A stretch of 59,160 nucleotides of DNA from a virus (taxonomy: Duplodnaviria; Caudoviricetes): positions 1-59,160 of the IMG/VR virus record IMGVR_UViG_3300046504_000185. One strand, written 5' to 3'. A program made the translations under genes and the position numbers. The notes beneath the pieces are model-generated. The model saw only the letters and a program-made list of their open reading frames with translations, did no database searches and had not been told where the DNA came from. Of this stretch, positions 1,122-50,505 are shown in pieces (positions within the stretch are counted from its first letter, which is position 1; every line of letters begins with the position of its first letter).

Positions 1122-3140
1122 ATGAGTGAAACAACTGAATACACCTTAACTTCTTATTTAGGTCCTGAATTTCAACAAAAATTAATGTGGCAATTGCTGG
1201 TGGAATCAGAATATGCCGAAAAAGCATTGCCTAATATATCCGTAGAATATTTTGATGATCCGAATCTCAAGAGATTATTTCTTATTATGTTGGAATATCT
1301 CCGGACTTATGATAAAGTTCCAAATCTTCAAAATCAGAGCATACATCAAGCAATAAATCAGTTCAAAGCACCAAACAATATAATTGAAGAAGAATCTCTC
1401 TTTGCCGTAGTAAAACGTATTGAGTTATTTAATGAGAGAATTTTGAATAAATCTTTAATGCACGATGGCGAAGTTGTTCAGAAATCAACAAATGAATTTA
1501 TTAAACAACAAGAGTATCGTAAATTAGCAGAATTCATTATCGTCAAAATTAAAAGTGGCGAAATGAAAAATAAAAAGATTATTGGTGAGATAGAAGAAAA
1601 ATTTCAAAAAATTACTCTTATAGGCAGTGATGAAGATTGTGGCAGTGATGTTATTGAGGGTCTTGAAAAAGCATTGAGAAAAGAATTCAGAGAAACAATA
1701 CCAACAGGCGTTACTGTAATTGATGTATTAACTGATGGTGGATTGGGTAAAGGTGAAATGGGTTTGATCCTTACGCCTTCTGGTGTTGGAAAGACAACCT
1801 TGTTGACAAAAATTGCCAATACTGCCCGTGAAAACAATAAAAATGTACTTCAGATTATTTTCGAAGATACCAAAGAACAGATACAGAGAAAACACGTTAC
1901 CATTTGGACAAAAATAGCATTAAGCCAACTTAATGTCGATGATAATAATGTAATAGCACTTCAAAAAGCAAATGAACATATTCAGAAATTAGGTCCAGGC
2001 AGGCTTATAATAAAGAAGTTTAGTCAGGAAGATACCACAATGCGTGATGTCAAAAACTTTATATTAAGAGAACAGAAAAAATGGGGATTTAAATTTGATA
2101 TTGTTGTACTTGATTATCTTGATTGTCTTGAATCACACAAAAAAGTCACAGACAGGACTGAAGCAGAACTTGTAATTGTTAAATCATTTGAAGCACTTGC
2201 AAGTGATCTGAACATACCATGTTGGTCAGCAATTCAAAGTAATCGTTCAGGATTTGATGCTGAACTTGTTGAAGCACAACATACTGGTGGTAATATCAAA
2301 AGAGTTCAAAAATCACATTTCTTTATGAGTGTTGCCAAAACTGCAGATCAAAAAGAAGCAAGTCTTGCAAGTATTAAGATTATCAAGGCAAGGTTTGCAC
2401 AGGATGGTCAGATATTTAAAGATTGTATATTCAATAATGATACAATGCAAATCATCATTCAAGATGATAGATATGTTGGTGATAGATACAGGGGTTTGAA
2501 AAAACAAGGTGATGATGACATAAATAGACTTGAAAATAGAACAGATAAATTAAATTTATTTCATGTTGCTGCATCAAGTGCGTTAGCCAATAGTGATGAT
2601 CAGGAAAAAGTTTCATTGATGGATGATGCAGCAAAAAAATATCTTGAAAATTTTCCTACTGAAAAGCCGAAAACTGAAAATGAAATAATAACTGTAACTG
2701 GTGATATTGGAAAATTTCCGGATACTGTAAAAGAAATTTCAATGGAAAAAGATACTGAAACGCCAAAAATTGTAAAAGAAAAAAATGAAGACATACTTGA
2801 AATTGAAAACTTACCTATTGAAAAAACTGATGGTGTAATTGATGGTGCAACTGAGGGTGTAAATGATGGAGCAAAAGAACCAATTTTAGATTGGTCTGGA
2901 GAAACTTTTACTACTACAACGAATGAAATTGAAGTAAAAATCGATGTTATTAAGCCGATTGAAACGCCAAAAATTGAAGAAAAAACTGTAGAAAAACTAA
3001 TAATTGAAGAAAAAAATAAAAATATTTTGATAGCAGAAAAAGACTTTGATAATCCTGACGATGTGCCAAAAATACATAAAAATGTATTTGAAATGTTAAC
3101 GAAAAAGGCTAAGAGTCAGAAAGTTATAGATACCAGTTAA
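1122..3140 (+). CDS. DnaB-like (SF4, T4 gp41-like) replicative helicase with long acidic C-terminal tail
   Basis: IPTG...GGL..GE motif, Walker A TPSGVGKTT, Walker B VVLDYLD, SAIQSNR and KARF arginine finger; last ~200 aa are Glu/Lys-rich low complexity. Confidence 0.9.
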   Translation: MSETTEYTLTSYLGPEFQQKLMWQLLVESEYAEKALPNISVEYFDDPNLKRLFLIMLEYLRTYDKVPNLQNQSIHQAINQFKAPNNIIEEESLFAVVKRIELFNERILNKSLMHDGEVVQKSTNEFIKQQEYRKLAEFIIVKIKSGEMKNKKIIGEIEEKFQKITLIGSDEDCGSDVIEGLEKALRKEFRETIPTGVTVIDVLTDGGLGKGEMGLILTPSGVGKTTLLTKIANTARENNKNVLQIIFEDTKEQIQRKHVTIWTKIALSQLNVDDNNVIALQKANEHIQKLGPGRLIIKKFSQEDTTMRDVKNFILREQKKWGFKFDIVVLDYLDCLESHKKVTDRTEAELVIVKSFEALASDLNIPCWSAIQSNRSGFDAELVEAQHTGGNIKRVQKSHFFMSVAKTADQKEASLASIKIIKARFAQDGQIFKDCIFNNDTMQIIIQDDRYVGDRYRGLKKQGDDDINRLENRTDKLNLFHVAASSALANSDDQEKVSLMDDAAKKYLENFPTEKPKTENEIITVTGDIGKFPDTVKEISMEKDTETPKIVKEKNEDILEIENLPIEKTDGVIDGATEGVNDGAKEPILDWSGETFTTTTNEIEVKIDVIKPIETPKIEEKTVEKLIIEEKNKNILIAEKDFDNPDDVPKIHKNVFEMLTKKAKSQKVIDTS

Positions 3141-3235
3141 AATTTTTTATAAAATATTGTAACTTTTTGTAAACTACTTCGTATTTATATTCCCAGACGA
3201 TTGTAAAATTTTTTTTCTTTTTTTTCATAAAATAC

Positions 3236-3298
3236 TTGCACATTAAAAAAACTTGTATTTACTTTGCATCGTCCAAAAGGGACAAATGTTCTTTGTAA
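3236..3298 (+). promoter_or_regulatory. putative promoter plus boxB-like hairpin and boxA-like leader of the ncRNA operon
   Basis: TTG at 3236; TTACTTTG near-match to TAnnTTTG at 3259-3266; hairpin gtcc-aaaag-ggac at 3271-3283; GTTCTTTGTAA at 3288. Confidence 0.45.
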
Positions 3299-3309
3299 GA
3301 TTTTTTAAG

Positions 3310-3372
3310 GAGAAATGAAGTAGCCGTTATTATGCATGACTTTTCTTGGACATTCCAAACGGATAATTTCTC
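3310..3372 (+). ncRNA. structured RNA, possible degenerate scaffold copy
   Basis: gagaaat/atttctc and ccgtt/aacgg stems; shares gttatta with copy 1 but lacks ACAGTA. Confidence 0.35.
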
Positions 3373-3380
3373 ATATGATA

Positions 3381-3506
3381 TAAAAGGAAACGGTGTGTTA
3401 TTACAGTAACAATTACATCAATGATAGATGGTCCGCCTTCAAAGCAGAAAGTTCCGGGGTCAAAGCCGGATTGTTTAACAAAAATAACAAACAAATTATC
3501 CTTTTA
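3381..3506 (+). ncRNA. Y-RNA-like scaffold copy 1 carrying a degenerate tRNA-like domain (anticodon TCA)
   Basis: taaaagga/tcctttta outer stem; tgttatt/aataaca inner stem; ACAGTA at 3403-3408. Cloverleaf 3407-3477: aacaat/attgtt, catc/gatg, tccgc-cttcaaa-gcaga, ccgg-ggtcaaag-ccgg. Confidence 0.65.
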
Positions 3507-3545
3507 ATTTATAGTTTTCATGGGTTTTCACAAAACCCATTACAC

Positions 3546-3618
3546 TGCGGGGTGGTAGAAGAGGCATCTCGTCAGGCTCATAACCTGAAGATCGGGGGTT
3601 CGAATCCCTCTCCCGCTA
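3546..3618 (+). tRNA. tRNA-Met(CAT), initiator-like; CCA not encoded
   Basis: tgcgggg/tcccgct acceptor with 1-72 mismatch; tcagg-ctcataa-cctga anticodon arm; ggggg-ttcgaat-ccctc T arm; followed by ct rather than cca. Confidence 0.9.
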
Positions 3619-3623
3619 CTATG

Positions 3624-3696
3624 TAGAAGAACTGTTAGTGTTTACAGTAAAATAACGCACAGTGATTTATCTAATAAGACTGACAAATTTCTTCTA
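3624..3696 (+). ncRNA. Y-RNA-like scaffold copy 2 (minimal, no tRNA cargo)
   Basis: tagaagaa/ttcttcta and tgttagt/actgaca stems; gtgtttacagta at 3638-3649. Confidence 0.65.
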
Positions 3697-3727
3697 ATCT
3701 TTTTAACAAACGTTCTTTAAAATATAT

Positions 3728-3865
3728 GGGGAGATAGCAAAACAAAAAACAAAAAATACTATCTCAACTGCTCTCTTCAAAGAGAGAACTCGTAGTGTTT
3801 CCAGTAAAAGGTAAAGCAATTGAGTTGAAATCAATAGATTACAGGTTCGAGTCCTGTTCTCCCCA
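3728..3865 (+). tRNA. tRNA-like gene (anticodon TGA, no long variable arm) with a ~65-70 nt scaffold insertion (copy 3, permuted) in the D-loop
   Basis: ggggaga/tctcccc acceptor; tagc...ggtaaagc D region; attga-gttgaaa-tcaat; acagg-ttcgagt-cctgt. Insert ~3740-3808 folds as aatacta/tagtgtt and ctctct-tcaa-agagag and contains gtgtttccagta. Confidence 0.75.
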
Positions 3866-3874
3866 CAAGTAATT

Positions 3875-3908
3875 CCCGGTTGTCCCTGTGGCAACACAAA
3901 CTTCCGGG
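3875..3908 (+). ncRNA. small GC-rich stem-loop with GNRA hairpin
   Basis: cccgg/ccggg enclosing tgtg-gcaa-caca. Confidence 0.4.
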
Positions 3909-3915
3909 TAACGAT

Positions 3916-4080
3916 ACAATGGGAAAACGAAAAGTGTTTACAGTAATATCGGAGGTTCGAATCCTTCCTTCCCCACCAAAATAATAAAATAAGTTTGGGG
4001 AAGTAGACAAGTGGCAAAGTCAATAGTCGGTTAAACTATGAAAACAAAAACAACAAATACTTTTAAAATGTTCCCAATGT
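3916..4080 (+). ncRNA. scaffold copy 4 carrying a circularly permuted tRNA (anticodon GTT, Asn-like)
   Basis: tgggaa/ttccca and aaaagtgttt/aaatactttt stems, then ACAGTA. 3' half first: T arm 3951-3967, cttcccc-a-cca 3968-3978. Then an 18-nt linker and the 5' half: ggggaag 3997-4003, D arm gac/gtc, anticodon arm atagt-cggttaa-actat 4023-4039. Confidence 0.8.
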
Positions 4081-4085
4081 TTTAA

Positions 4086-4295
4086 AAGTGGTACAAGGGT
4101 GAATATAAATTATTACAAATGATATAAGTGTAACCCCAATCCCACTTAATCCTAACATTTGAAGCATGTTGCAACGTGCGTGGTTAAGAATGGTTTTTAT
4201 CGGCAGAAGTGCTGAGTTTTTTCAAAAATAAAGAAATAATTACTGTGTCTAAGTTAAGCCAGATCGAAAGATAGGACTTTTTTTCGGCAGTAGTT
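4086..4295 (+). ncRNA. additional structured non-coding elements, unclassified
   Basis: aagtgg/ccactt (4086-4147); gcatgt-tgca-acgtgc (4164-4179); aattactg/cagtagtt (4238-4295) enclosing atc-gaaa-gat. Confidence 0.35.
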
Positions 4296-4301
4296 TAAAA
4301 A

Positions 4302-4396
4302 GGAAGAACTGGGTGTGTTTACAGTAGATTGAAACATGGAATCCCGTCCATTGAGAGGCGGGACAAACTTACAGGCAATACAACCGAACTTCTTCT
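4302..4396 (+). ncRNA. Y-RNA-like scaffold copy 5 with GC-rich hairpin cargo
   Basis: ggaagaa/ttcttct and ggtgtgtt/aatacaacc stems; gtgtttacagta at 4315-4326; cargo tcccgtc-cattgaga-ggcggga. Confidence 0.65.
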
Positions 4397-4431
4397 CTAT
4401 ATTTGAGAGAAGTATTTTTCCTACAAGAAAT

Positions 4432-4477
4432 GGGCGGGGATATGGTGTGAAAACACCATGCTTTGCCCTTTTTTTTT
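4432..4477 (+). terminator. Rho-independent terminator closing the ncRNA operon
   Basis: gggcgggg/ctttgccc plus atggtgt-gaaa-acaccat, followed by T9. Confidence 0.75.
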
Positions 4478-4520
4478 GACGTTCTTTGTAATATTTTGGT
4501 ATTTTAATTTTTATAAATGC

Positions 4521-4551
4521 TTTGTTTGTAGAGAAAATATTTCTACATTTG
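4521..4551 (+). promoter_or_regulatory. Bacteroidota sigma70-type promoter (TTTG ... TACATTTG)
   Basis: TTTG 4521-4524, 19-nt spacer, TACATTTG 4544-4551, upstream of ATG 4581. Confidence 0.6.
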
Positions 4552-4580
4552 AGTTTTAATAAATCTAAAAAGCAATTTAT

Positions 4581-5486
4581 ATGGAAGAATTAATTAAGAT
4601 TACCGCAAGTCCTAAAACTGGAAATCCGGTTGTTAATGCAAGAGATTTATATAAATTTCTTGATGTCGGTATGCATTTTGCCGATTGGATAAAACCATTA
4701 ATTGATAAATGGGGATTTATCGAAAACCAAGATTTTGCCTTATTATTTTATGACAAAAATGGTGAAAAAATTCCAACGTCACAAAAACAGGACATGGAAG
4801 AATGGGGGTTTGCGAATAAGGTATATCGAATCGAGTATGCTTTGACCTTAGATACAGCCAAAGAAATTTCAATGGTGCAGAACAGTGTTAAAGGTAAAGA
4901 AGCCAGACGATATTTTATTGCCAAAGAAAAAGAATTGCAAGAATTAAAATTAAAAGCACCTGAACCGATTTTAGTTCTTTCAAATGGTACTCAAACGATT
5001 GCTGAAGTTGCAAAACTTCTTAATGAGAATAAAATTGATAAAGGTAAGATTAGTAGTCATAAAATAAATCAGGTGTTACGTGAAAACCGATATTTTAGAC
5101 CAAACAATCAACCGTATCAGAAATGGATTAATCAGGGTTTGTTTCAGATTGAACAATATAATCCTAAGTATTATTCGGCAAAACGAATAACAGTAACAAA
5201 TGCTAAAGGATTACCAATAATACAACAATTGTTCAATCAAAGTATTTCAGTAAGTCCAGTACCAATAAAATATGACAATCGAACATTTTTATTGGAAAAA
5301 ATTGAAAATGGTCGTCTGACGAGACTTGAAGAAACAATGCTTGCACTTATTAATCATATGTTTGCATGCTTAAATCATAAAAGCAAACCAATTGAAATTG
5401 AAAATTACAGGTCTCAGTTTAAAACATTTAAGGCAGAAATTGAGAAAGAAAAAATAAATAATCTGCCAAAAGCATTGAACATATAA
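4581..5486 (+). CDS. AntA/AntB-family antirepressor with KilA-C (ANT)-like domain
   Basis: VNARDLYKFL...FADWIK...FIENQDF...EYALTLDTAKEISM...GKEARRYFI; second domain TIAEVAKLL...LRENRY...PYQKWINQGLF. Confidence 0.85.
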   Translation: MEELIKITASPKTGNPVVNARDLYKFLDVGMHFADWIKPLIDKWGFIENQDFALLFYDKNGEKIPTSQKQDMEEWGFANKVYRIEYALTLDTAKEISMVQNSVKGKEARRYFIAKEKELQELKLKAPEPILVLSNGTQTIAEVAKLLNENKIDKGKISSHKINQVLRENRYFRPNNQPYQKWINQGLFQIEQYNPKYYSAKRITVTNAKGLPIIQQLFNQSISVSPVPIKYDNRTFLLEKIENGRLTRLEETMLALINHMFACLNHKSKPIEIENYRSQFKTFKAEIEKEKINNLPKALNI

Positions 5487-5495
5487 TTTTATTTA

Positions 5496-5503
5496 TATAT
5501 TTG
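5496..5503 (+). promoter_or_regulatory. Bacteroidota-type -7 promoter element (TATATTTG)
   Basis: Exact TAnnTTTG followed by CA, ~22 nt before ATG 5526. Confidence 0.55.
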
Positions 5504-5525
5504 CACACTAATTAAATTTTATACT

Positions 5526-7154
5526 ATGGAAAAATTGGTATTAACACAGAAAATGCTTGGAACAATTAAGAATTCATTAATTGAAGGCTTAACCATTGCG
5601 AGTGGTGCTAAAAGCAGTGCAACTTACTACCACAAGAAAGATGACCAAATGAAGGCTTTACAAAGCCAGATCAAGGTGATGTACAAATTATCTAAGGAAC
5701 TTCCTTTGATTATAGCAAGTCAAAAGGGTGCTACAGGTAGATTTGTATCCGAAGTACTTTTGAATGAATTCAAAAATACCTTGAAGGGTGGTGCATGTAA
5801 TATTGTTAATCCAATTGATTGGTATGATAATGGATTGTCAGATAAGGCAGTTCTTACCGCATTGAATAATCTCGGTGAAAATGGTTTACCATATGTTCTT
5901 CGTTTATTCGTAGACTTGAAAAACGAAAAGGTTAACAACGAAAGGGCAAGGAAGATCATGCTTGGCTTCATTTGGGGTCAGTCAAACTTGGAATTCTATG
6001 CAATGAAGTACCGTAATAAAATTGCTGAAATTCTTAAGCACGTTTATGGTGTTAAGAAAACCTCAGTGTTACTTACTATTGCACGCAAGCAGGTAAATCT
6101 TCAGGGTGCTAACTTAGTTGGTACTCAGAAAGAAATGAATATTGTGAACGATTGTATCTTGAAATACTTCAACGGTGACACAGACAAGGCATTCAAATTA
6201 CTGCTTTTCTTATTCAAGCAGGATGCAGGTCTTAACCTTGATGAATTCAATCTTTTAAGAGAATACAAAAAGGCAAAACTTGATATCACAGGTATTAAGA
6301 GTGTTCCGGAAGAAGTATTGATTGGTTTGGTTTCTTCAATCAAGCACCCTCAGTACCACACAATGTGGTCAAGTAAGGTTCAAAGAGAAGCAACAAAGGC
6401 ACTTATTCGTAAGAATGTTGAAGTTACTTCTGTTAACCAACAGGTTCGTCAGACAAAATCAACTACAAAACTTGGCGTTGAAAAAACTGTTGAACTTGAA
6501 AAGGCAACTGACTTCCTTGCACTTTACAAGACAGGATATGAAAATACTTTCACTTCAGAATTAAAGAGTGCAATTGACAAACTTGCTGAAAAGAAAAAGA
6601 TCGTTGGTTTCTTCTACAAGAGCATTGGTATTATTGTCGATGACAGTAATTCAATGACTGGCGACAAGGCAGAATCAAAGAATACTCCAAGGGCAATTGC
6701 AGATTTTACTGCAAAGGTTTTGGGCAAGTCAGCAGATTGTGTGACTTTTGTGAAGACAAAGGATGAAGTAACTGATTTAGCAACAGCATTTGTTGAATTG
6801 CTTAAGTCAGAAAATACTGCAAATCCATATCAGGCAATTTTCATCTTAACCGATGGATATGAAAACGCCTACGATGGATTGACTAACGAAGTTATTTCAA
6901 TCTACAAGGCAGAAAGTCAGAGGGATATTCCAATATTCCAAATTTCACCTATCACAAGTGCTGAAATGGGTGCTAATGTAAGAAAATTGGGTGCTGATGT
7001 TGTCACAATGGCAATCAATAACCCAAGTGCATTACAGCCTCAGATTAACGCAAGGTTGCTTGAAATTGACACAAAACGTTGGTTGGAAAATCAGGTATTG
7101 GCTCTTGAAGCAGCACCTGTTAAGAGAACAAAAAAAATTAGTATTAATGTTTAA
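5526..7154 (+). CDS. Ro60/TROVE-like helical protein with C-terminal VWA (MIDAS) domain
   Basis: 542 aa, similar to Ro60 length. N-terminal ASGAKSSATYYHKK resembles the Ro60 GSEGGTYY motif; helical middle; VWA motifs IIVDDSNSM, TDL and IFILTDGYEN. The VWA call is strong; the TROVE call is by resemblance. Confidence 0.7.
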   Translation: MEKLVLTQKMLGTIKNSLIEGLTIASGAKSSATYYHKKDDQMKALQSQIKVMYKLSKELPLIIASQKGATGRFVSEVLLNEFKNTLKGGACNIVNPIDWYDNGLSDKAVLTALNNLGENGLPYVLRLFVDLKNEKVNNERARKIMLGFIWGQSNLEFYAMKYRNKIAEILKHVYGVKKTSVLLTIARKQVNLQGANLVGTQKEMNIVNDCILKYFNGDTDKAFKLLLFLFKQDAGLNLDEFNLLREYKKAKLDITGIKSVPEEVLIGLVSSIKHPQYHTMWSSKVQREATKALIRKNVEVTSVNQQVRQTKSTTKLGVEKTVELEKATDFLALYKTGYENTFTSELKSAIDKLAEKKKIVGFFYKSIGIIVDDSNSMTGDKAESKNTPRAIADFTAKVLGKSADCVTFVKTKDEVTDLATAFVELLKSENTANPYQAIFILTDGYENAYDGLTNEVISIYKAESQRDIPIFQISPITSAEMGANVRKLGADVVTMAINNPSALQPQINARLLEIDTKRWLENQVLALEAAPVKRTKKISINV

Positions 7155-7159
7155 AAAAT

Positions 7160-8263
7160 ATGACCATGAATACAAGAGAATTTACAGAATTACTTAAAGG
7201 TTGCCGTCCTGTTAAAGACAAGGATGGTAACATCATCGTACAATCTATCATGAACATGCAGGTTGTATGTTTAACAACTGATGTTGAAAATTCATTGGAT
7301 ACTCGTTTTGCGAATCCTTTGACAGCATTGCAGTCAAGTAACCAATCTTATGGTCAGATTAGTTTTAACAACAAATCTGATAAGGAAGTTATTCTTCCTA
7401 CTCAGATGGCTGTTTTAACAAAACAACAGGCACAGAACCACGGTATGATCAAGGCAGGTTATCTTGAAAAATACGCAAATACTACATATCACGATGCAGG
7501 TTGCGTACAAGGTGGACAAACCGGATATTTCCGTGGAACATCAGAATTCCGTATGATTCCTGTTTCAATGCGTGAAATGTTATTTGACAGCATTGGACAA
7601 TCTGCAGGTTATTCAAGGATTTATCCTGCTATTCAAAAATTAGGTCAGGAAACTGGCAGTGCTGCAGGTAATTACTTGAATGTATACTTCGAAAAGTACG
7701 ATAAGAAACTTGAACAGTTCATTGCACACTTTGAACGTCCAAAGAATCTGATTGGTATCATCGTCTTAATTGATGGTGAAATTGTTGCAATAGACAAATT
7801 CCCTTCATTCACATATGCTGAACAGGTATGGGATATGATGATCCGTGACTGCTATGGTTCACTTGCTATTATTTCTGAAGTAAAAAACAGGAAGTCAAGT
7901 AATGAATTCACTGAAACATATACTGAAATGAAGAAAAGTCATCAGGAAAATGTTGTTGATTTGCTTGAAAAAGCATTGAAGAAAACCAAGCAGAACATGA
8001 CTGCAAGTGTAAATGAAAAACTTCAGGAGTTACTTGAACTTACTTTTGATGCTACACTTGATACAGAAGGACAACCAACTGCAGCAAGAGCACCAAAGTC
8101 ATATGTTCTTAAGACTGAAGGTTACATTGGTCAGGTGATCACTGAAAATGAATTTAACCACCTTGTAAGTGTTGTTAAGAGAGACAGGTTCGACCCTAAC
8201 GCACTCCGAGAAGTTAACGAACTTCGTAAGAAGGCTCGTAAGCAGGATAGATTCAGTTTATAA
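7160..8263 (+). CDS. ARPP-family (DUF6569-like) protein
   Basis: QNH...CVQGGQ and IGIIVLIDGEIVAIDKFPS resemble the DUF6569/ARPP QNR...CVE.GR and G-hydrophobic-DG...D.F.S motifs; starts 5 nt after the Ro-like gene. Confidence 0.6.
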   Translation: MTMNTREFTELLKGCRPVKDKDGNIIVQSIMNMQVVCLTTDVENSLDTRFANPLTALQSSNQSYGQISFNNKSDKEVILPTQMAVLTKQQAQNHGMIKAGYLEKYANTTYHDAGCVQGGQTGYFRGTSEFRMIPVSMREMLFDSIGQSAGYSRIYPAIQKLGQETGSAAGNYLNVYFEKYDKKLEQFIAHFERPKNLIGIIVLIDGEIVAIDKFPSFTYAEQVWDMMIRDCYGSLAIISEVKNRKSSNEFTETYTEMKKSHQENVVDLLEKALKKTKQNMTASVNEKLQELLELTFDATLDTEGQPTAARAPKSYVLKTEGYIGQVITENEFNHLVSVVKRDRFDPNALREVNELRKKARKQDRFSL

Positions 8264-35229: not shown

Positions 35230-35897
35230 ATGATATTAGATGAATATGTTAAAATAAGATGGAATCAAAACAATAAAAAATATTATATTAAAAAAGGATA
35301 TAATTTTATTAAAATTGGTGATTTGTTTGACGTTAAAGTTGTTGATTTATCAAATGAAACGCATGTATTGGTCAATGTAAAATGTGATGTTTGTGGCAAA
35401 ATAAAAACAATAATATATAGGGAATATATTGCTAACATTAAAAACGGAAACTATTATTGCTGTTCAAGAAAATGTAGTATTGGTAAGAAAAATGAAAGTG
35501 TCTTAAAGAAATATGGAGTTAAAAATGTTTCACAATGTGAAGAAATTAAAGAAAAAAAATTGCAAACAAATATTAATAATTATGGTGAAATTTATATGAA
35601 ATATTTTCAGAGAAATTAAAATCACCAATACAACATGCATTAAATGGCGGTGAGAAAAAATTTGTTAGATACTATGTAGATGGCTATATTCCAAAGCATA
35701 ACATATGTATTGAATGGGATGAAAGACAACATAATGTAAAAAGAAAAATAGAAAGAGATAATAAGAAAGATGATTTCTTAAAAGAAACTTTTGGCTGTCA
35801 AATTATAAGAATTAAAGAAAAGGAATTTTTAAATAACGTTGATAATCAAACAGAATTTGTAATTAATACGATAAAAAACATGGTAAAAAATGAGTAA
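35230..35897 (+). pseudogene. frameshifted zinc-ribbon + Vsr/DUF559-like homing endonuclease
   Basis: Frame 0 (35230-35619): CDVC...CCSRKC and KKYGV repeats. The -1 frame is open 35589-35897 and encodes QHALNGGEK...YYVDGY...ICIEWDERQH...IIRIKE. Confidence 0.7.
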
Positions 35898-36816
35898 GAA
35901 AGTAGCAGTACTATTTTCAGGTGGATTGGACTCCACCTATTTAGTTTGGAAAAACTTGAGTGAGGGTAATGAAGTTCAACCAATCTATGTTGAAATAGAA
36001 AACAATAAAACAAAAACAATTTTGGAAAAAAACCGTACAAAATTACTGGTGAGAGAATTTGAAAAAGAATTTCCACTTAAAATTCATGATGTTAAACATA
36101 TTCTGAAAGTCAATGTTGATGCACAAGAAGATAGTCTGTATTTTAAACAAGTACCTGTTTGGCTTCTTGCAATAGTATTTGCACAGGATTTAAATGTTGA
36201 TGAAATACAGATTGCCTATGTTGCAAATGATGATGCAATCGGTTATCTACAGGACATTCAGAATGTTTATAAGGCGTATGAACCACTTATGAGGTATCTT
36301 AAACCTTTGGTGTTTCCACTTTCTAAGAAACCCAAGTATGATATGGCGCATGAACTACCAGAAATGTATCGTAAATATATTTTTAGTTGTGAATATGCAA
36401 AAATTGTTGGCAGTGAAGATGCAGAATTCATCGAATATGAACCATGTTGTGATTGCGTACCTTGTAGTCATGCAATACAAAATGGTTATTATGGTTTAGG
36501 TCAATTTCCTGACAACTATAAGAACAATCTTTTGAAGGTTCGTGCACGTGCAGTACATGACATGGGATGTGATGTAATAGATAAACAAGGCAGAAAATTT
36601 GATTATTGGAATGGTTTCGATGGTACTCCAACTGTTGATAAAGAATCAGAACCAAAGGTAGAATCTAAAGGTCCATATCAGATTGAAATTACTTTTCCTG
36701 ATACATTTAAATCTCCCGAAATTTCATATAAGGAACTGGATAGTTGTGATTTAAAATTACCGATGGCAAAAAAAGAGAGACCTGTAGAACTTAGTTTGAA
36801 AGCATTTCAAGGATAA
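35890..36816 (+). CDS. QueC-like PP-loop ATPase (7-cyano-7-deazaguanine synthase-like)
   Basis: VAVLFSGGLDSTY; PL...K; SC...PCCDCVPC zinc site. Confidence 0.7.
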   Translation: MSKKVAVLFSGGLDSTYLVWKNLSEGNEVQPIYVEIENNKTKTILEKNRTKLLVREFEKEFPLKIHDVKHILKVNVDAQEDSLYFKQVPVWLLAIVFAQDLNVDEIQIAYVANDDAIGYLQDIQNVYKAYEPLMRYLKPLVFPLSKKPKYDMAHELPEMYRKYIFSCEYAKIVGSEDAEFIEYEPCCDCVPCSHAIQNGYYGLGQFPDNYKNNLLKVRARAVHDMGCDVIDKQGRKFDYWNGFDGTPTVDKESEPKVESKGPYQIEITFPDTFKSPEISYKELDSCDLKLPMAKKERPVELSLKAFQG

Positions 36817-41417: not shown

Positions 41418-42206
41418 ATGGCTAACTCAGAATTATATGGTAAGACGTTTCCTGTGCCCTCTGACGTGATTAAATATGTCCAGACGGTGTTGGTATCCAA
41501 CCCCAATGGTGAAGGCGTTAAAAGGGCAAAATTCATTGTTAAAAACGGTATATTGACTTATCAGGAATTAAAACGTTTGAAGAATTTTTTTGATACTTAT
41601 AATCCTGAAATAACCGATAAAATGCAATATGCTCTTGCAGGTGGTAATTTAATGAAAGCATTTGTTGATAAAACACTTCAGGCAGAAAGAAATGCAGTTA
41701 AAGGGGGAAAGGAGATAAGACGGGATATGAATATTGATCCTAATTTAGCCACACATGCTTATCAGACACCAAGACTATCAGAAGCAGAAGATAAAGATAA
41801 GAAAGAGGAAAAACAAAAAAATGCTGTTGCTGTCATTGTAAATAGTGATAATAAAATATTATTATTGAAAAGAGCAAAGATTAAAGATATTTGGATGCCG
41901 GAAAAATGGGCACTTGTTGGTGGCAGAATTGAAAAGGGTGAGACTCCGCAAAAGGCAGTTGAAAGAGAAATAACAGAAGAAACGGGTTTAACGATTGATA
42001 AGTTTATAAAAACTTTTGCAATACATAGAAATCCTGGTAGTATTGAACACATCTTTGCATGCCGTTATGATGGCGATCCGACTGACATTACTTTGAATGA
42101 AGAAAATACAAATTATGGTTGGTATGATATTGATGAAATGAATTATTTGGATATTGTACCGCATTTGATAGAATACATTACATTATCGTTTAAAAAATAT
42201 GAATAA
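41418..42206 (+). CDS. unknown N-domain + NUDIX hydrolase
   Basis: Nudix box GGRIEKGETPQKAVEREITEETGL. Confidence 0.85.
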   Translation: MANSELYGKTFPVPSDVIKYVQTVLVSNPNGEGVKRAKFIVKNGILTYQELKRLKNFFDTYNPEITDKMQYALAGGNLMKAFVDKTLQAERNAVKGGKEIRRDMNIDPNLATHAYQTPRLSEAEDKDKKEEKQKNAVAVIVNSDNKILLLKRAKIKDIWMPEKWALVGGRIEKGETPQKAVEREITEETGLTIDKFIKTFAIHRNPGSIEHIFACRYDGDPTDITLNEENTNYGWYDIDEMNYLDIVPHLIEYITLSFKKYE

Positions 42207-44182: not shown

Positions 44183-47100
44183 ATGACATTTGCCGAATTT
44201 AAAGAGACTTTCTTACCTGAACTACTTAAAATCAAATCATTTAAAGGTAAAATGGACTATGCAAATCAACATTTGCAGAGGATCGGCAGTGGTACTGGCA
44301 GAGTTGTTTATGATATTGATGATGAAAAGATATTGAAATTAGCAAAAAACCCCAAGGGTATTGCACAAAATGAAGCCGAAGCAGGTGCAGGATATTATCG
44401 TGATACACATCATATTGTTGCAGTAGTATTTGATAGTGCCGATGATGATTCATGGTTAATTGCTGAAAAAGCAAAGAAAGTCAATGAAAAAAGAATTATT
44501 GAACTAACAGGCATTCCAAGCCTTAATGACTTGTGGATGTATCTCAAAAATTTTCATTCAAGTAATAACGGCAGAGGAAATATCTTTGGACTAAGTAAAG
44601 ATATTGTTGAACAATTAAATAATAATGAATTTGCACAGGATTTACAGAATTTCGTTGCAGATTATTCACAACAACCCGGAGATTATGGTAGACCAAGCAC
44701 TTATGGAGAAGTTCTTCACGATGGTCAACCATCAATTGTTTTAACCGATTATGGTTTAAATGATGAAGTATATGACACTCATTATAAGCCGAAAAAAGAA
44801 CGCATGTACGAACTCTATAATTTTGCTGATGGTAATGATGATATTCTCGGTGATCTGCCACCACAAGATGCTGTAGATACTCGTCAGGCTATGTGGGGTT
44901 TAATGCCTTATAGTGTTAGTGACGGTGAGGGACAAGAAGTTATAAATGAAAAATTTGTTTCATTTATTAATAATACTAACAAATATCCTACAAGAAGAAT
45001 ATTGCCAAGTACTCCATCCTTAATGGATGAATTTCACAATGTCGTAAATAATCTTAATGAAGTACTTGAAAAGGTCAGTGATAAAAAGAAATTTTATAAT
45101 AATTTATTAGAACTTCAAGATTATTTGATCCGAGGTAAATTCTATGATAGAGAACCATTACAAAAAGAAATGATTGAATTGGATGAAACCAATACACCAA
45201 AACTTAAACCAATGCAATTAGATAAAAACTATAGTAATGGTGTTGCAGAAAAAGTTGCGCAAAAATTAAATCTTGGTGCACCACAATATCTTGGTGGTGG
45301 CGGTTTTGGATATGCGTATTTAATTAATGGGAATAAGGTATTAAAAATAACAACAGATGTATCTGAAGTTGATGCAGGTCTGAAGATCAAAAGAGCAAAA
45401 CCTCAAGCACTTGTGGCTGTTTATAATATATATAAAATAGTTGATGCTGAAAATAATACCTCAACATATGCTCTCATTGAAGAACATATTGCCAATAAAC
45501 CAATAGATGAATTTTTTAAATATGTTTCGATTTTAAATGAAATCCAACCCGAACCCAATATATATGGAAATCTTATGATAATGTTAAGAAAAAAGAAACT
45601 TGATGAATATCAGGAATTAAGTCAAAAGATTTTAACCGAAAATCCAAATGCAGACATACCTCAGTCTGATAGACAAAAGGCATATAATTTTATGATGGGA
45701 TTTCTTGAAATCAAAAAAGAATTGATGCAACTTCAAATCAAATCTGACGATTATAGTAATTTAGAGAATGTGGGTTATAAAGATGGTATTTTAACATACT
45801 TTGATATTGGTGGTAGTTTTAATATAATGCAAGAACCACAACTTCCACCGGAAAATCGAATTGATTTACCGGAAGATGGTTCAGCAAGATTTTCAACCGT
45901 TGATTCTATTGGTAGAGATAATTTTCCTGCATATAATAATACAGATGATGGTTCTCCATTAACTGATCCTAATCTTCCTGTGAATATTTTTGCAGAAGAT
46001 TTGGAATATAATCATGTAGCAGGCGATGCAACACAAGATAAATTCCAGATCACTGAAAGAAAAATGTCTTATATGCCAGGTAGTCAAGCCGTTGAAGTTA
46101 AGAAAAAATGTAGATTGGCAGGTCTTGGCAATACTTCAACTGCTTGTAATCAGGGTGATATTAGCAATTTGAATTTCAAATCAATTGATGAAACTGCAGA
46201 TGTTAATATACCGGGTAAATTAAATGGATATGATTCACTTAAAATAATAGATGGAGATCAAGTTGTGGGTGAAGTTGGTATTATGGATAGGGGAGTTCAG
46301 GGCGGTAATCATTATATTGCTATTGATAAAATTTTTATCGATAAAAATTTCAGAGGTAATGGTTATGCTAATGATGCAATGAATTTAATTTTTGATTATG
46401 CTGATAAAAATAATATAATTGTTACATTAACTCCTGATAATATGTGGGGTGCAAGTGTACCTAAACTAAAAGCATGGTATAAATCAATAGGTTTTGTTGA
46501 AAATAAAGGCAAGAAAAAGGATTTTCAGACCATGCAGTTAATGTATAGATTGCCAAAGGGTCGTGTTAATGAAGAAATTGATGCGAGTGAAGCATATTGG
46601 GATTCAGGAGTAGTACGTACTATGATTCAAGGTAGAAAAGATGTTGGATTACTTGCATCTAAGTTATATCCTGATCTTTATAGTATTGCAGAAAAATATA
46701 ATTTCGGTTTGATTCCAATAAAACAAAGTGATCATAATTTAGATATGAATATTGTCTATCGCAAAACTCCAAGAGGCGAAGCCAATGCAAAGAAATTAGA
46801 ACAAATTATGATTAGTCATGGTGGATATGTTCAAGATAAAACACCTGAAGAAGCACGTGAAATTGGAAAATTATTGGATTATAGTGATGATTCAATTCAG
46901 CAATTCATAGACAGGATATACAAAAATGCTCCGAAAGCACCAGAGTATGCAGATTATCAAGAACTTAATGAACAAACCATTAAGGACTTTGAAAGTCAAA
47001 TTCATAAAGATAATAATACACATGAATTAGATAAATTTCATTTGTATGATCAGGATGATTTTAAAGTATATGCAGTTAATGGTGAAGCAGTACGTGACAA

Positions 47101-49295: not shown

Positions 49296-49964
49296 ATGAT
49301 TGAATTTAATAATAATAAATTTAAAATATTTGGTGATTTTCTTGAAGATGTGACATTGGATGAATTGTTGGAAAAAAATTCATTAACATATAATGATAAT
49401 AAGAAAGGAAAAAAAAATAAAAAGTGGGATTTAGTTTCTTTAAAAATCATTTGGTGCGGCATCGATCCCAAAATGGTATTAAGAACAAAATTTGAGGTTA
49501 AAGGGGATTATATTTCAGCAGGAAGTAATAGAGTATGGATTGAAGTGTTTGGGCATGATGGTAATTCAGGATTAAGTACTACTGAAGCAGATTGGTGGAT
49601 AATTATAACCGGATTTGAAAGAATATGGATAAAACCATTTGAAATTTATCGTTTTATTGAAACACATCCAGAGGCACATAATGGACGTGAACCAGAACTT
49701 GGAAGTGGCGATGATTATATTAAGTTTGTATATAAATTAAATAGAAAAATTTTATGTCCATATATTTATAGTTTAAATGATAAGAAAAAAGCATTTATTA
49801 CAATGATTCCAGAAAATAATCCGTTATTTTGGTTTAATTGCTTGCCCTTAAATCCTGATATGAAAAAATGTATTGAGGGAGCATTAATAAGAGCAAAGGA
49901 ACTTGGATATGATGTTTCTAAATATAATGTAGAATACGATGGTAAAGAGATTAGCAGTATTTGA
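49296..49964 (+). CDS. putative PD-(D/E)XK-like nuclease-fold protein
   Basis: WDL...FEVK.D....N.V.IE....SGL.TT.ADWW pattern seen in phage restriction-fold proteins. Confidence 0.45.
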   Translation: MIEFNNNKFKIFGDFLEDVTLDELLEKNSLTYNDNKKGKKNKKWDLVSLKIIWCGIDPKMVLRTKFEVKGDYISAGSNRVWIEVFGHDGNSGLSTTEADWWIIITGFERIWIKPFEIYRFIETHPEAHNGREPELGSGDDYIKFVYKLNRKILCPYIYSLNDKKKAFITMIPENNPLFWFNCLPLNPDMKKCIEGALIRAKELGYDVSKYNVEYDGKEISSI

Positions 49965-50505
49965 TTTTGATGGAACACTTATAGATTCTCCCGAAAAAGA
50001 ACAAGGGAAGGTTCAATGGTCAGAGAAAAAGGGTGAACCATTTAAATATCAGGGATGGTGGGGCAGACCTGAGAGTTTGGACTTGGACGTTTTTGATATT
50101 AAACCATTTTCAAGTGTGTTGAATCAATTAAAAAAAGAAGCATCAACACCAGATACTGTTGTTTTAGTTCTTACTTCAAGAATGGAAAAATTACGTCCGC
50201 AGGTTGAAGCAGTCCTTAATGTTAATCATATTACTGATCTCATTAGTAAAATCGATATGAAACGTGCTGAAGGCAATAAGGGTATAAAAGTATTGCGTTA
50301 TGTTAATGCGTATCCGGATTTGGAAGAAATAAATGTTTATGAAGACCGTGATACGGATATTCAGGCATATGAAGCCATTAGAAATAAAATTCCTGAAGGA
50401 ATAACGTTTAATATTTATCTGGCAGTAAATGGTAAAATATCTTTGCTTGAAGCAGAAAGCAAGTTATTGAATATTATCAACGAAGAAATTCAAAAATTTA
50501 TTTAA
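49939..50505 (+). CDS. HAD-superfamily phosphatase (RNA-repair 'Swiss Army Knife' HAD-like)
   Basis: VFDFDGTL, GWW, LTSR, K and YEDR motifs. Confidence 0.75.
   Translation: MVKRLAVFDFDGTLIDSPEKEQGKVQWSEKKGEPFKYQGWWGRPESLDLDVFDIKPFSSVLNQLKKEASTPDTVVLVLTSRMEKLRPQVEAVLNVNHITDLISKIDMKRAEGNKGIKVLRYVNAYPDLEEINVYEDRDTDIQAYEAIRNKIPEGITFNIYLAVNGKISLLEAESKLLNIINEEIQKFI

What the first reader, a model, noticed from the sequence alone, without database searches (positions are those of the whole stretch)
3381..8263. Candidate phage Ro60/Y-RNA-like system: array of tRNA-carrying scaffold RNAs beside a Ro60-like VWA protein and an ARPP-like partner
Seen: five copies of a base-paired scaffold with conserved unpaired ACAGUA in a terminator-bounded non-coding operon. 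After one antirepressor gene follows a 542-aa protein with an N-terminal ATYY motif and a C-terminal MIDAS VWA domain, then an ARPP/DUF6569-like gene 5 nt downstream. Established: Ro60 is a TROVE+VWA protein that binds a Y-RNA terminal stem, and bacterial YrlA Y RNAs carry tRNA-mimic domains. Inference: the scaffold is the binding handle for this divergent Ro protein and the loops are interchangeable payloads. Payloads could be tRNA decoys for host anticodon nucleases or adaptors for RNA repair or decay. I do not recognise a multi-RNA array with three tRNA topologies as a described system.
Basis: partly seen in the sequence, partly recalled or inferred. Interest (0 to 1): 0.93.

Follow-up and report, generated by a model that had tools for sequence, protein, structure and literature searches.

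The report
Divergent phage Ro60 with tRNA-like RNAs
A huge uncultured phage carries a very divergent copy of the ring-shaped RNA-binding protein Ro60, a row of five small structured RNAs (three of them tRNA look-alikes) that share one conserved stem, and a conserved partner enzyme-like gene, which together look like a new branch of the known Ro60/Y-RNA systems.

Summary

RNA array, Ro-like gene and ARPP gene travel together. ARPP follows the Ro-like gene in 78 of 80 related viral loci; the other 2 are cut by a contig end. Of 42 arrays found by motif alone, 40 have the Ro-like gene downstream; the other 2 are also cut. The motif recurs upstream of homologues only 25-31% identical.

Best reading: a divergent phage Ro60/Y-RNA system whose handle differs from the canonical CGAA-type site, with an added ARPP partner. 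Binding and expression are untested. Phage Ro60 with Y-like RNAs and tRNA-mimicking YrlA are already known, so this is a new variant of a known kind. An earlier scan note reports tandem YrlA units beside a bacterial Ro60.

The parts
3288..3298 (+). GTTCTTTRWAA box, first of three. Possible promoter-like element ahead of unit A.
   Evidence: Three matches in the window, all inside the array, against 0.37 expected. Related loci show the same box 6-8 nt before a unit's first G. Function is inferred only.
3381..3507 (+). Unit A. The handle (P1, AAACG, P2, UUACAGUA) closes around a complete tRNA-like cloverleaf. The anticodon loop reads UCA and the T loop is atypical.
   Evidence: Rfam tRNA 37.3 bits at 3407-3477. 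Arm duplex. Orthologues aligned in A4: P1, D, anticodon and T stems with compensatory changes in 16 of 18 predicted pairs.
3546..3619 (+). Ordinary tRNA-Met (CAU) embedded in the array, without a handle.
   Evidence: ARAGORN; Rfam 45.5 bits. A tRNA-Met lies within 3 kb upstream of the Ro-like gene in 46 of 63 distinct related loci.
3622..3697 (+). Unit B. Handle plus a short payload that is not tRNA-like.
   Evidence: MFE fold with P1 and P2, z -2.79. Arm duplex -17.1 against -10.8 kcal/mol for shuffled arms. Orthologues listed.
3712..3722 (+). GTTCTTTRWAA box, second copy, 5 nt before the 5' end of unit C.
3728..3865 (+). Unit C. tRNA-like RNA with its own acceptor ends. The handle is capped by a loop and inserted as a hairpin in the D-arm region (motif CCAGUA at 3801-3806).
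   Evidence: Rfam tRNA 32.6 bits over model positions 9-63 at 3803-3857. Fold z -3.62 with the acceptor pairing 3728-3734 to 3858-3864. Long interrupted tRNA hits of 122-146 nt occur in four distant loci.
3918..4077 (+). Unit D. The handle closes around a circularly permuted tRNA-like module, in the order T arm, loop-closed acceptor stem, D arm, intact anticodon arm. The handle enters at the variable-loop position.
   Evidence: Alignment A3 of 42 units: 32 pairs, 22 with compensatory changes. 98.6% of cells are paired against 44-50% when partners are slid, and 0 of 500 shuffles reach the observed covariation.
4299..4397 (+). Unit E. Handle plus a GC-rich hairpin payload that is not tRNA-like.
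   Evidence: Fold; orthologues; arm duplex.
4392..4477 (+). Two terminator-like hairpins with T runs after the last unit (4392-4412 and 4432-4477).
   Evidence: for the first. The second was read from the sequence and its equivalents are visible after unit E in related loci.
4481..4491 (+). GTTCTTTRWAA box, third copy, after the terminators.
4581..5486 (+). AntA/KilAC antirepressor-like gene. A variable insert between array and Ro-like gene, not part of the conserved module.
   Evidence: Pfam AntA 3e-20 and ANT 2.8e-07. In many related loci the last unit lies only about 220-280 nt before the Ro-like gene.
5526..7154 (+). Ro60-like protein: helical TROVE-type ring (about residues 1-356) plus a VWA domain with a MIDAS motif (about 366-530).
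7160..8263 (+). ARPP-1 family protein, the conserved downstream partner.
   Evidence: Pfam PF20208 at 1.7e-15. A homologue directly follows the Ro-like gene in 78 of 80 loci. Invariant C115 and Q117. No solved structural relative.

Best explanation
This is a divergent Ro60/Y-RNA system of a clade of uncultured huge phages.

Shown here:
- The 542-aa protein has the Ro60 architecture, a TROVE ring plus a VWA/MIDAS domain.
- The non-coding stretch encodes five structured RNAs that share one handle: P1 stem, an internal loop carrying GRACU on the 5' strand, an 8-10 bp P2 stem, then UU(A/C)CAG at the junction with a variable payload.
- Three payloads are tRNA mimics joined to the handle at three different places: at the acceptor ends, in the D arm, and at the variable loop with a closed acceptor.
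- The handle, the Ro-like gene and an ARPP-1 gene are inherited together across very divergent phages.

Inferred:
- The Ro-like protein binds the handle, as Ro60 binds the terminal stem of Y RNAs.
- The payloads act as exchangeable effector modules that present tRNA-shaped surfaces to tRNA-recognising host or phage factors, such as nucleases, modification or repair enzymes. The anticodon triplet is free to change or is being driven to change.
- The ARPP-1 protein, a predicted enzyme with an invariant Cys and Gln, works with the particle, possibly docked on the VWA MIDAS site.
For: Fold:
- AF2 model pLDDT 92.
- All top 12 Foldseek PDB hits are Ro60/TROVE at probability 1.00 over about 570-590 columns; the next hit has E 0.039.
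- BFVD top hits are viral Ro-like/TROVE proteins.
- Language-model neighbours include viral TROVE/vWA_Ro60 clusters at 0.93-0.94 (a lead only).

RNA:
- 4 exact motif matches against 0.04 expected.
- A 31-nt profile of the 5' strand hits only the + strand upstream of the gene, 3-6 times per locus.
- Unit D structure: 98.6% of cells paired, covariation 0.471 against 0.096 or less when partners are slid.
- 5' arms pair better with their own downstream sequence than with other units' (-14.0 against -10.95 kcal/mol; best of 11 in 48 of 120).

Co-occurrence:
- ARPP follows the Ro-like gene in 78 of 80 loci, and all 8 distant partners hit Pfam ARPP-1.
- 40 of 42 motif-found arrays have the Ro-like gene downstream; the other 2 are cut by a contig end. 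All 62 single motif matches have no homologue; the 32 of them that I read individually are isolated matches that look like coding DNA.
- The motif is present upstream of homologues of 25-47% identity in 7 of 8 distant IMG/VR loci and in LR756500.1.
- 23 of 25 ordinary tRNAs in three of those loci lack it.

Precedent: phage Ro60 binds Y-like RNAs encoded upstream of its gene (PMC12135203, section 17). YrlA is a permuted tRNA mimic with a closed acceptor (10.1101/312249, passages).
Against: - No Pfam TROVE hit for this protein or for 24 sampled relatives (0 of 24) or 8 distant loci (0 of 8). No sequence-level PDB hit, even with a profile.
- TM-scores are moderate (0.43-0.51) and rmsd is 4-5 A.
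- The published Ro-binding motifs (GNCGAAN0-1G; CGAA) are not conserved in the handle. Rfam Y_RNA/YrlA models do not hit at E up to 1.
- No RNA-seq holder was available, so transcription, RNA ends and processing are unknown.
- Nothing here tests binding.
- One distant locus (L077) showed no recognisable unit.
- The loci are phylogenetically related, so co-occurrence counts are not independent events.
- The handle's partner could be the ARPP-1 protein or another factor.
Confidence: 0.7

Rival explanations
1. The units are unusual precursor tRNAs (leader-trailer paired, interrupted and circularly permuted). The shared handle is a processing or splicing signal that is cut out and religated to give working tRNAs. 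The Ro-like gene is merely a syntenic neighbour.
For: Units A, C and D are tRNA-like, and unit C has natural acceptor ends. Excision of a helix followed by ligation is how permuted tRNAs mature in some algae and archaea (10.1101/312249, discussion passage). The window encodes a CCA-adding/poly(A) polymerase domain and a HAD domain of RNA-repair proteins. A real tRNA-Met sits in the array.
Against: - Units B and E carry the same handle but no tRNA.
- The acceptor stem of unit D is closed by loops that can be only a few nucleotides long, and an encoded CCA is not conserved.
- The D stem of unit C is degenerate.
- Anticodon triplets differ among close orthologues (16 triplets in 35 units) while the neighbouring tRNA-Met keeps CAU in 46 of 63 loci.
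- 23 of 25 ordinary tRNAs in the same phages lack the handle.
- No splicing endonuclease or RNA ligase family was detected in the window by Pfam.
Confidence: 0.12
2. The handle is recognised by the ARPP-1 protein or another phage or host factor, not by the Ro-like protein. The Ro-like protein instead acts on other, for example misfolded or damaged, RNAs.
For: The ARPP-1 gene co-occurs with the array exactly as the Ro-like gene does. The handle lacks the published Ro-binding motif (PMC4201824 passage). ARPP is predicted to act on ribose-containing molecules (PMC9503650, passage).
Against: Ro60 proteins studied so far bind RNAs encoded next to their genes through a terminal stem with an internal loop (PMC12135203, PMC4201824). 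ARPP has no known RNA-binding fold and no solved relative.
Confidence: 0.1
3. The repeats act at the DNA level, as promoters, recombination or integration sites, or repeat-mediated duplications of a tRNA cluster, and have no RNA role of their own.
For: A GTTCTTTRWAA box also repeats in the stretch. tRNA genes are common integration targets (general knowledge).
Against: Pairing is kept through compensatory changes in P1, P2 and all tRNA-like stems. All copies lie on one strand and in one orientation relative to the gene. Arm sequences differ completely between distant phages while the architecture is kept.
Confidence: 0.03

Closest known systems
Bacterial and phage Ro60 (Rsr) with YrlA-type Y RNAs (Chen et al. 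2014, PMC4201824; YrlA structure preprint 10.1101/312249)
   Same: - A Ro60-fold protein is encoded next to one or more small RNAs on the same strand.
- The RNAs have a terminal stem with an internal loop plus a tRNA-like module.
- Unit D, like YrlA, is a circularly permuted tRNA mimic with a loop-closed acceptor stem and D/T arms.
- Several copies within 4 kb of the gene are reported for YrlA.
   Different: - The protein is not detected by Pfam TROVE.
- The handle motif is GRACU...UU(A/C)CAG, not GNCGAAN0-1G.
- Rfam YrlA/Y_RNA models do not hit.
- In YrlA the Ro-binding stem replaces the anticodon loop. In unit D the anticodon arm is intact and the handle leaves from the variable-loop position.
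- Two further connectivities (units A and C) and two payloads that are not tRNA-like share the same handle.
- The conserved neighbour is ARPP-1.
Thermus phage phiLo Ro60 with Yrl1/Yrl2 (PMC12135203; PDB 9l5y, 9kop)
   Different: - 11-12% identity.
- Two RNAs were chosen there by a CGAA motif in a stem-bulge-stem.
- No tRNA-like modules are described in the section I read.
- That paper shows binding and PNPase attenuation by experiment; nothing is tested here.
ARPP of ARG-centred NAD+/ADP-ribose conflict systems (PMC9503650)
   Same: The downstream gene belongs to Pfam ARPP-1 and keeps an invariant Cys and Gln, the hallmark described for ARPP. Those systems often include a vWA-domain gene.
   Different: No ARG, rhodanese-phosphatase, Nudix or WYL gene adjoins the pair here. 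The vWA domain here is fused to a TROVE ring. A link between ARPP and Ro60 or small RNAs is not mentioned in the passages I read.

Membership tests
Ro60 / TROVE-VWA proteins | Ring of HEAT-like helical repeats (TROVE) followed by a VWA domain, in one chain of about 500-540 residues | tested here: met
Ro60 / TROVE-VWA proteins | Sequence match to the Pfam TROVE model (PF05731) | tested here: not met
   No hit at E up to 0.01 for the window protein or 24 sampled relatives; none at E up to 0.001 in 8 distant loci. A six-frame search of the record with PF05731 found nothing.
Ro60 / TROVE-VWA proteins | MIDAS motif in the VWA domain (DxSxS ... T ... D) | tested here: met
   D372 invariant; S374 and S376 at 90% or more; D443 and G444 invariant across 67 family members.
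Ro60 / TROVE-VWA proteins | Binds a Y RNA stem on the outer surface and RNA 3' ends in the central cavity | not testable with these tools
Only genomic co-occurrence supports it.
Y RNA / YrlA | Match to the Rfam Y_RNA or YrlA covariance models | tested here: not met
   cmscan of 3100-4700 at E up to 1 lists only tRNA, permuted tmRNA-like and one miRNA-like chance hit. Eight distant loci at gathering threshold gave only tRNA.
Y RNA / YrlA | Conserved Ro-binding motif GNCGAAN0-1G (or CGAA) near the 5' end | tested here: not met
   The 5' strand consensus from 94 distinct instances is RAAC(U/G)-N4-GURUUUNCAGUA. CGAA occurs in some units only (column counts; motif definition from PMC4201824 and PMC12135203).
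Y RNA / YrlA | Terminal stem formed by the 5' and 3' ends, with an internal loop, closing a variable module; encoded within a few kb of Ro60 on the same strand | tested here: met
   P1, loop and P2 in units A, B, D and E. Arrays lie 139-2441 nt upstream of the gene on the same strand.
Y RNA / YrlA | tRNA-like module with D and T arms and a loop-closed acceptor stem | tested here: met
   Unit D consensus structure with covariation. It differs from YrlA in keeping the anticodon arm.
ARPP-1 (PF20208) | Pfam model match above the curated cut-off (27 bits) | tested here: met
   57.5 bits, E 1.7e-15. Eight distant partners score 52-115 bits.
ARPP-1 (PF20208) | Absolutely conserved Cys and Gln (as described in PMC9503650) | tested here: met
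   C115 and Q117 are invariant in 23 aligned partners. I did not verify that these are the same columns as in the paper's alignment.
ARPP-1 (PF20208) | Neighbourhood with ARG and rhodanese-phosphatase genes | tested here: not met
   No such Pfam families among the window's proteins or the flanks of 8 distant loci.

The most novel reading that the evidence does not exclude
The Ro-like ring displays a panel of handle-tethered tRNA mimics whose anticodon triplets are under diversifying pressure. Positions 34-36 carry 1.67 bits of entropy, against 0.40 at positions 37-38. The particle would then work as a decoy or sensor for host anticodon-directed nucleases or RNA-modifying toxins. The ARPP-1 enzyme on the VWA MIDAS site would read or remove a ribose-linked adduct, such as ADP-ribose, from the captured RNA. 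That would make this the first link between Ro60 particles and NAD+/ADP-ribose conflict systems.
Probability: 0.15. Interest if true: 0.85.

Novelty: new variant of a known kind. Interest (0 to 1): 0.64.

Why it matters
Ro60 and Y RNAs are conserved from bacteria to humans, yet what most bacterial and phage versions do is still open. This locus defines a large Ro60-fold family confined so far to uncultured viruses: 306 cluster representatives at E up to 0.001. Family models miss it.

The family comes with an easily searchable RNA handle, so many candidate RNA partners can now be found by sequence. The same handle carries tRNA mimics in three connectivities as well as payloads that are not tRNA-like. 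This supports the view that Y-type RNAs are modular adaptors.

The invariable ARPP-1 neighbour gives a concrete, testable candidate effector. It also gives a possible bridge to ADP-ribose-based phage-host conflict.

Tried and rejected
- First motif test (12-mer, 1 mismatch) was not significant: 6 against 2.87 expected. It was replaced by the extended exact pattern.
- A 6-bp P1 complement search allowing G-U was uninformative: 166 of 213 observed against 145 of 213 with shuffled arms. It was replaced by duplex energies and alignments.
- DNA similarity to GenBank phages found only tRNA-Met matches.
- PHROGs gave no hit for either protein.
- PDB sequence searches, with the single sequence and with a profile, gave nothing meaningful.
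- The first collection scan used the wrong spacing (5 N). It returned 24 loci, of which only 4 had the homologue downstream. It was repeated with 4 N.
- The look-up of sequencing runs listed no RNA holder, so read laying was not used and expression is untested.
- No profile-profile comparison with a TROVE alignment was made, because I had no TROVE sequences from a tool.
- I considered hammerhead or other small ribozymes, tmRNA and retron RNA for the handle and dropped them. Rfam gave no such hits at E up to 1, apart from weak permuted-tmRNA matches explained by the permuted T arm and acceptor, and no reverse transcriptase is nearby.
- Locus L077 showed no recognisable unit.


Full report
**Setting.** The window is a 59-kb, 32% G+C fragment of a virus record that CheckV estimates as 18% complete. 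All 39 long ORFs lie on the + strand. Relatives of its proteins sit on uncultured viral contigs of up to about 350-370 kb, so this is a huge phage. DNA holders are peat and other environmental metagenomes, and no RNA run was listed. Only one GenBank phage record, the uncultured 462-kb LR756500.1, carries a relative of the key protein, at 25.5% identity.

**The observation.** The stretch between a DnaB-like gene (1122-3140) and an AntA/KilAC antirepressor-like gene (4581-5486) has no long ORF. It holds five copies of a shared element on the + strand.
It reads a 5-8 bp stem (P1), then RAAC(U/G), then 8 nt forming the 5' strand of a second stem (P2), then UU(A/C)CAGUA.
- The exact pattern RAACK-N8-TTWCAGTA occurs 4 times, all here, against 0.04 expected. 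The fifth copy has CCAGUA.
- My first, looser test was not significant.
- RNA folding and arm-duplex calculations give the same picture for units A, B, D and E. P1 and P2 are formed by the 5' and 3' ends of each unit. They are separated by an asymmetric internal loop that holds GRACU, and they close around a variable payload.
- In unit C the handle is turned inside out. P1 is capped by a loop, and the open end of P2 is inserted into the D-arm region of a tRNA-like RNA that has its own acceptor ends.

**Payloads.**
- Unit A carries a whole cloverleaf (Rfam tRNA 37.3 bits).
- Unit C is the interrupted tRNA-like RNA (32.6 bits over model positions 9-63).
- Unit D is a circularly permuted tRNA mimic.
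- Units B and E carry payloads that are not tRNA-like.
- A normal tRNA-Met (3546-3619) lies between units A and B.

An alignment of 42 unit-D orthologues, including one from a distant phage, gives a consensus of P1, P2, T arm, a 7-bp acceptor stem closed by a loop, D arm and an intact anticodon arm. Of its 32 pairs, 22 show compensatory changes. In that alignment 98.6% of cells are paired, against 44-50% when partners are slid. The covariation score is 0.471 against 0.096 or less, and 0 of 500 shuffles reach it. A 36-sequence alignment of unit A supports P1 and the D, anticodon and T stems, with 16 of 18 pairs showing compensatory changes.

**The protein at 5526-7154.** Pfam, PHROGs and PDB sequence searches find nothing, even with a 67-member profile. 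None of 24 sampled relatives hits TROVE.
- The family is large: 306 representatives of 50% clusters at E up to 0.001. It has an invariant DxSxS...DG MIDAS signature.
- An AlphaFold model built on that alignment is confident: pLDDT 92.0, pTM 0.90. It is helical to about residue 356 and an alpha/beta domain after that.
- Against the PDB, the 12 best Foldseek hits are all Ro60/TROVE structures: human, Xenopus, Deinococcus Rsr and Thermus phage phiLo. E ranges from 6.4e-07 to 9.5e-04 over about 570-590 columns, and the next hit has E 0.039.
- BFVD returns viral Ro-like/TROVE proteins at 9-14% identity.
- The language-model atlas lists viral TROVE/vWA_Ro60 clusters at 0.93-0.94 (a lead only).

I conclude that the protein has the Ro60 architecture but belongs to a subfamily outside the Pfam TROVE model.

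**The protein at 7160-8263.** It starts 5 nt after the Ro-like gene and matches Pfam ARPP-1 (57.5 bits, E 1.7e-15).
- ARPP was defined in an analysis of NAD+/ADP-ribose conflict systems as a predicted enzyme with an absolutely conserved Cys and Gln. It is often found near vWA genes and was proposed to act on ribose moieties (PMC9503650, passages read).
- In 23 aligned partners C115 and Q117 are invariant.

**Do the three parts belong together?**

Forward direction. In 80 viral loci fetched through the Ro-like protein:
- An ARPP homologue directly follows in 78. The other two end at the contig edge.
- A 31-nt profile of the handle's 5' strand hits only the + strand upstream of the gene, 3-6 times per locus, in the loci of 59% identity or more.
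- In the eight loci of 26-47% identity the profile fails. ARAGORN or Rfam nevertheless find tRNA-like elements just upstream.
- Reading those loci shows the same core, G(R)ACU, 8-10 nt, then (U/C)U(N)(C/U)AG or UCCAG, directly 5' of tRNA-like payloads. P1 and P2 sequences are entirely different. This holds in 7 of the 8 loci and also in LR756500.1. L077 shows none.
- All eight distant partners hit ARPP-1 at 52-115 bits.

Reverse direction. I scanned the viral collection for the motif alone. Of 104 loci:
- 42 hold arrays, defined as at least two profile hits on one strand. Of these, 40 have the Ro-like gene downstream on the same strand, 139-2441 nt away. The other two are cut by a contig end.
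- The 62 single matches have no homologue. The 32 of them that I read individually (4N pattern, at least 3 kb of room) are isolated and look like coding DNA; 17 of these fall in three recurring stretches, one apparently a DnaB-like helicase gene.

In three distant loci 23 of 25 ordinary tRNAs lack the motif, so it is not a general tRNA-processing signal. These counts are inflated by relatedness of the phages. The spread is nevertheless wide: protein identity falls to 25%, G+C ranges from 24% to 32%, and the arm sequences are unrelated. That argues for a functional link.

**Anticodon loops.**
- Among 36 unit-A orthologues there are 23 different 7-nt anticodon loops. Among the 35 ungapped loops there are 16 different triplets.
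- Entropy is 1.67 bits at positions 34-36, against 0.40 at positions 37-38 and 0.39 in the UUACAG region.
- ARAGORN calls in the arrays give 26 different anticodons other than CAU. The handle-less tRNA-Met keeps CAU in 46 of 63 distinct loci.

The scaffolded modules therefore keep the tRNA shape and loop frame but not a decoding identity. This fits mimics better than decoding tRNAs.

**Mechanism.** The shown and inferred steps are set out under Best explanation; in brief, the Ro60 fold, the RNA structures and the three-way co-inheritance are shown, and handle binding, payload function and the ARPP-1 role are inferred.
- GRACU and UUACAG lie about one helical turn apart across P2, so one protein surface could read both.
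- The window also encodes a CCA-adding/poly(A)-polymerase domain, a HAD domain of RNA-repair proteins, a Nudix protein and a QueC-like protein.

The main rival is that these are odd pre-tRNAs whose handle is a splicing signal. It is weakened by units B and E, by the tightly closed acceptor of unit D, by the degenerate D stem of unit C and by the unstable anticodons. I cannot exclude that some units are processed.

**Comparison with what is known.**
- Ro60 with adjacent Y RNAs is established in bacteria. YrlA was reported near Ro60 in 254 bacteria and 22 phages, sometimes in several copies, with the motif GNCGAAN0-1G (PMC4201824, passages).
- YrlA is a permuted tRNA mimic that lacks the anticodon loop and has a closed acceptor (10.1101/312249, passages).
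- A Thermus phage Ro60 binds two upstream Y-like RNAs and dampens host PNPase (PMC12135203, abstract and section 17).
- TROVE proteins were noted in some jumbo phages (PMC7824862, passage).

What differs here:
- The protein subfamily is invisible to Pfam TROVE.
- The handle motif is different, and Rfam Y_RNA/YrlA models do not hit at E up to 1.
- The attachment point differs: the variable loop, with the anticodon arm kept.
- Three connectivities and two payloads that are not tRNA-like share one handle.
- The ARPP-1 partner is constant.

Five full-text searches found no description of these features. Supplements of the cited papers were not read and could list related loci.

**Verdict.** It is a new variant of a known kind. 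Binding, expression and function remain to be tested.

Noticed in passing
window 3288-3298, 3712-3722, 4481-4491: An 11-nt box, GTTCTTTRWAA, occurs three times in the window, only inside the RNA array (expected 0.37). In related loci it sits 6-8 nt before the first G of a unit. It may be a promoter-like or processing element specific to these RNAs.
   Followed up: partly
window 3546-3619: A regular tRNA-Met (CAU) without the handle is embedded in the array. It is kept in 46 of 63 distinct related loci, including one locus at about 27% protein identity (L079).
   Followed up: partly
window 4078-4298: The 220-nt spacer between units D and E has no handle motif. It begins with a short AAGYGG-type string that recurs after unit D in related loci, and it holds a terminator-like hairpin at 4200-4215. 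It could be another small RNA.
   Followed up: no
window 44183-49285 and 49939-50505: A 1700-aa protein carries a CCA-adding/poly(A) polymerase head domain and RNA-binding domain, plus a weak NleE-like methyltransferase match. Shortly downstream (after one 222-aa ORF) is a protein with a weak, sub-threshold match (25.5 bits against a 25.6-bit cut-off) to the HAD domain of 'Swiss Army Knife' RNA-repair proteins. Together they suggest tRNA or RNA-end repair functions in this phage.
   Followed up: no
window 4581-5486: The AntA/KilAC antirepressor-like gene lies between the array and the Ro-like gene in only some relatives. In many loci the last unit lies about 220-280 nt before the Ro-like gene, so the antirepressor gene looks like a mobile insert.
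   Followed up: partly
window 2819 (inside the DnaB-like gene 1122-3140) and loci L118, L127, L128, L147, L176, L184: A chance look-alike of the handle's 5' strand sits in a stretch that looks like the coding sequence of the DnaB-like helicase gene of related phages. It accounts for 6 of the 62 single motif matches in the collection scan.
   Followed up: yes
window 35890-36816 and 41418-42206: A QueC-like protein (queuosine-precursor pathway; the single-stretch match did not pass on its own) and a Nudix protein lie in the same window. Either could bear on tRNA modification or on ADP-ribose/nucleotide metabolism.
   Followed up: no
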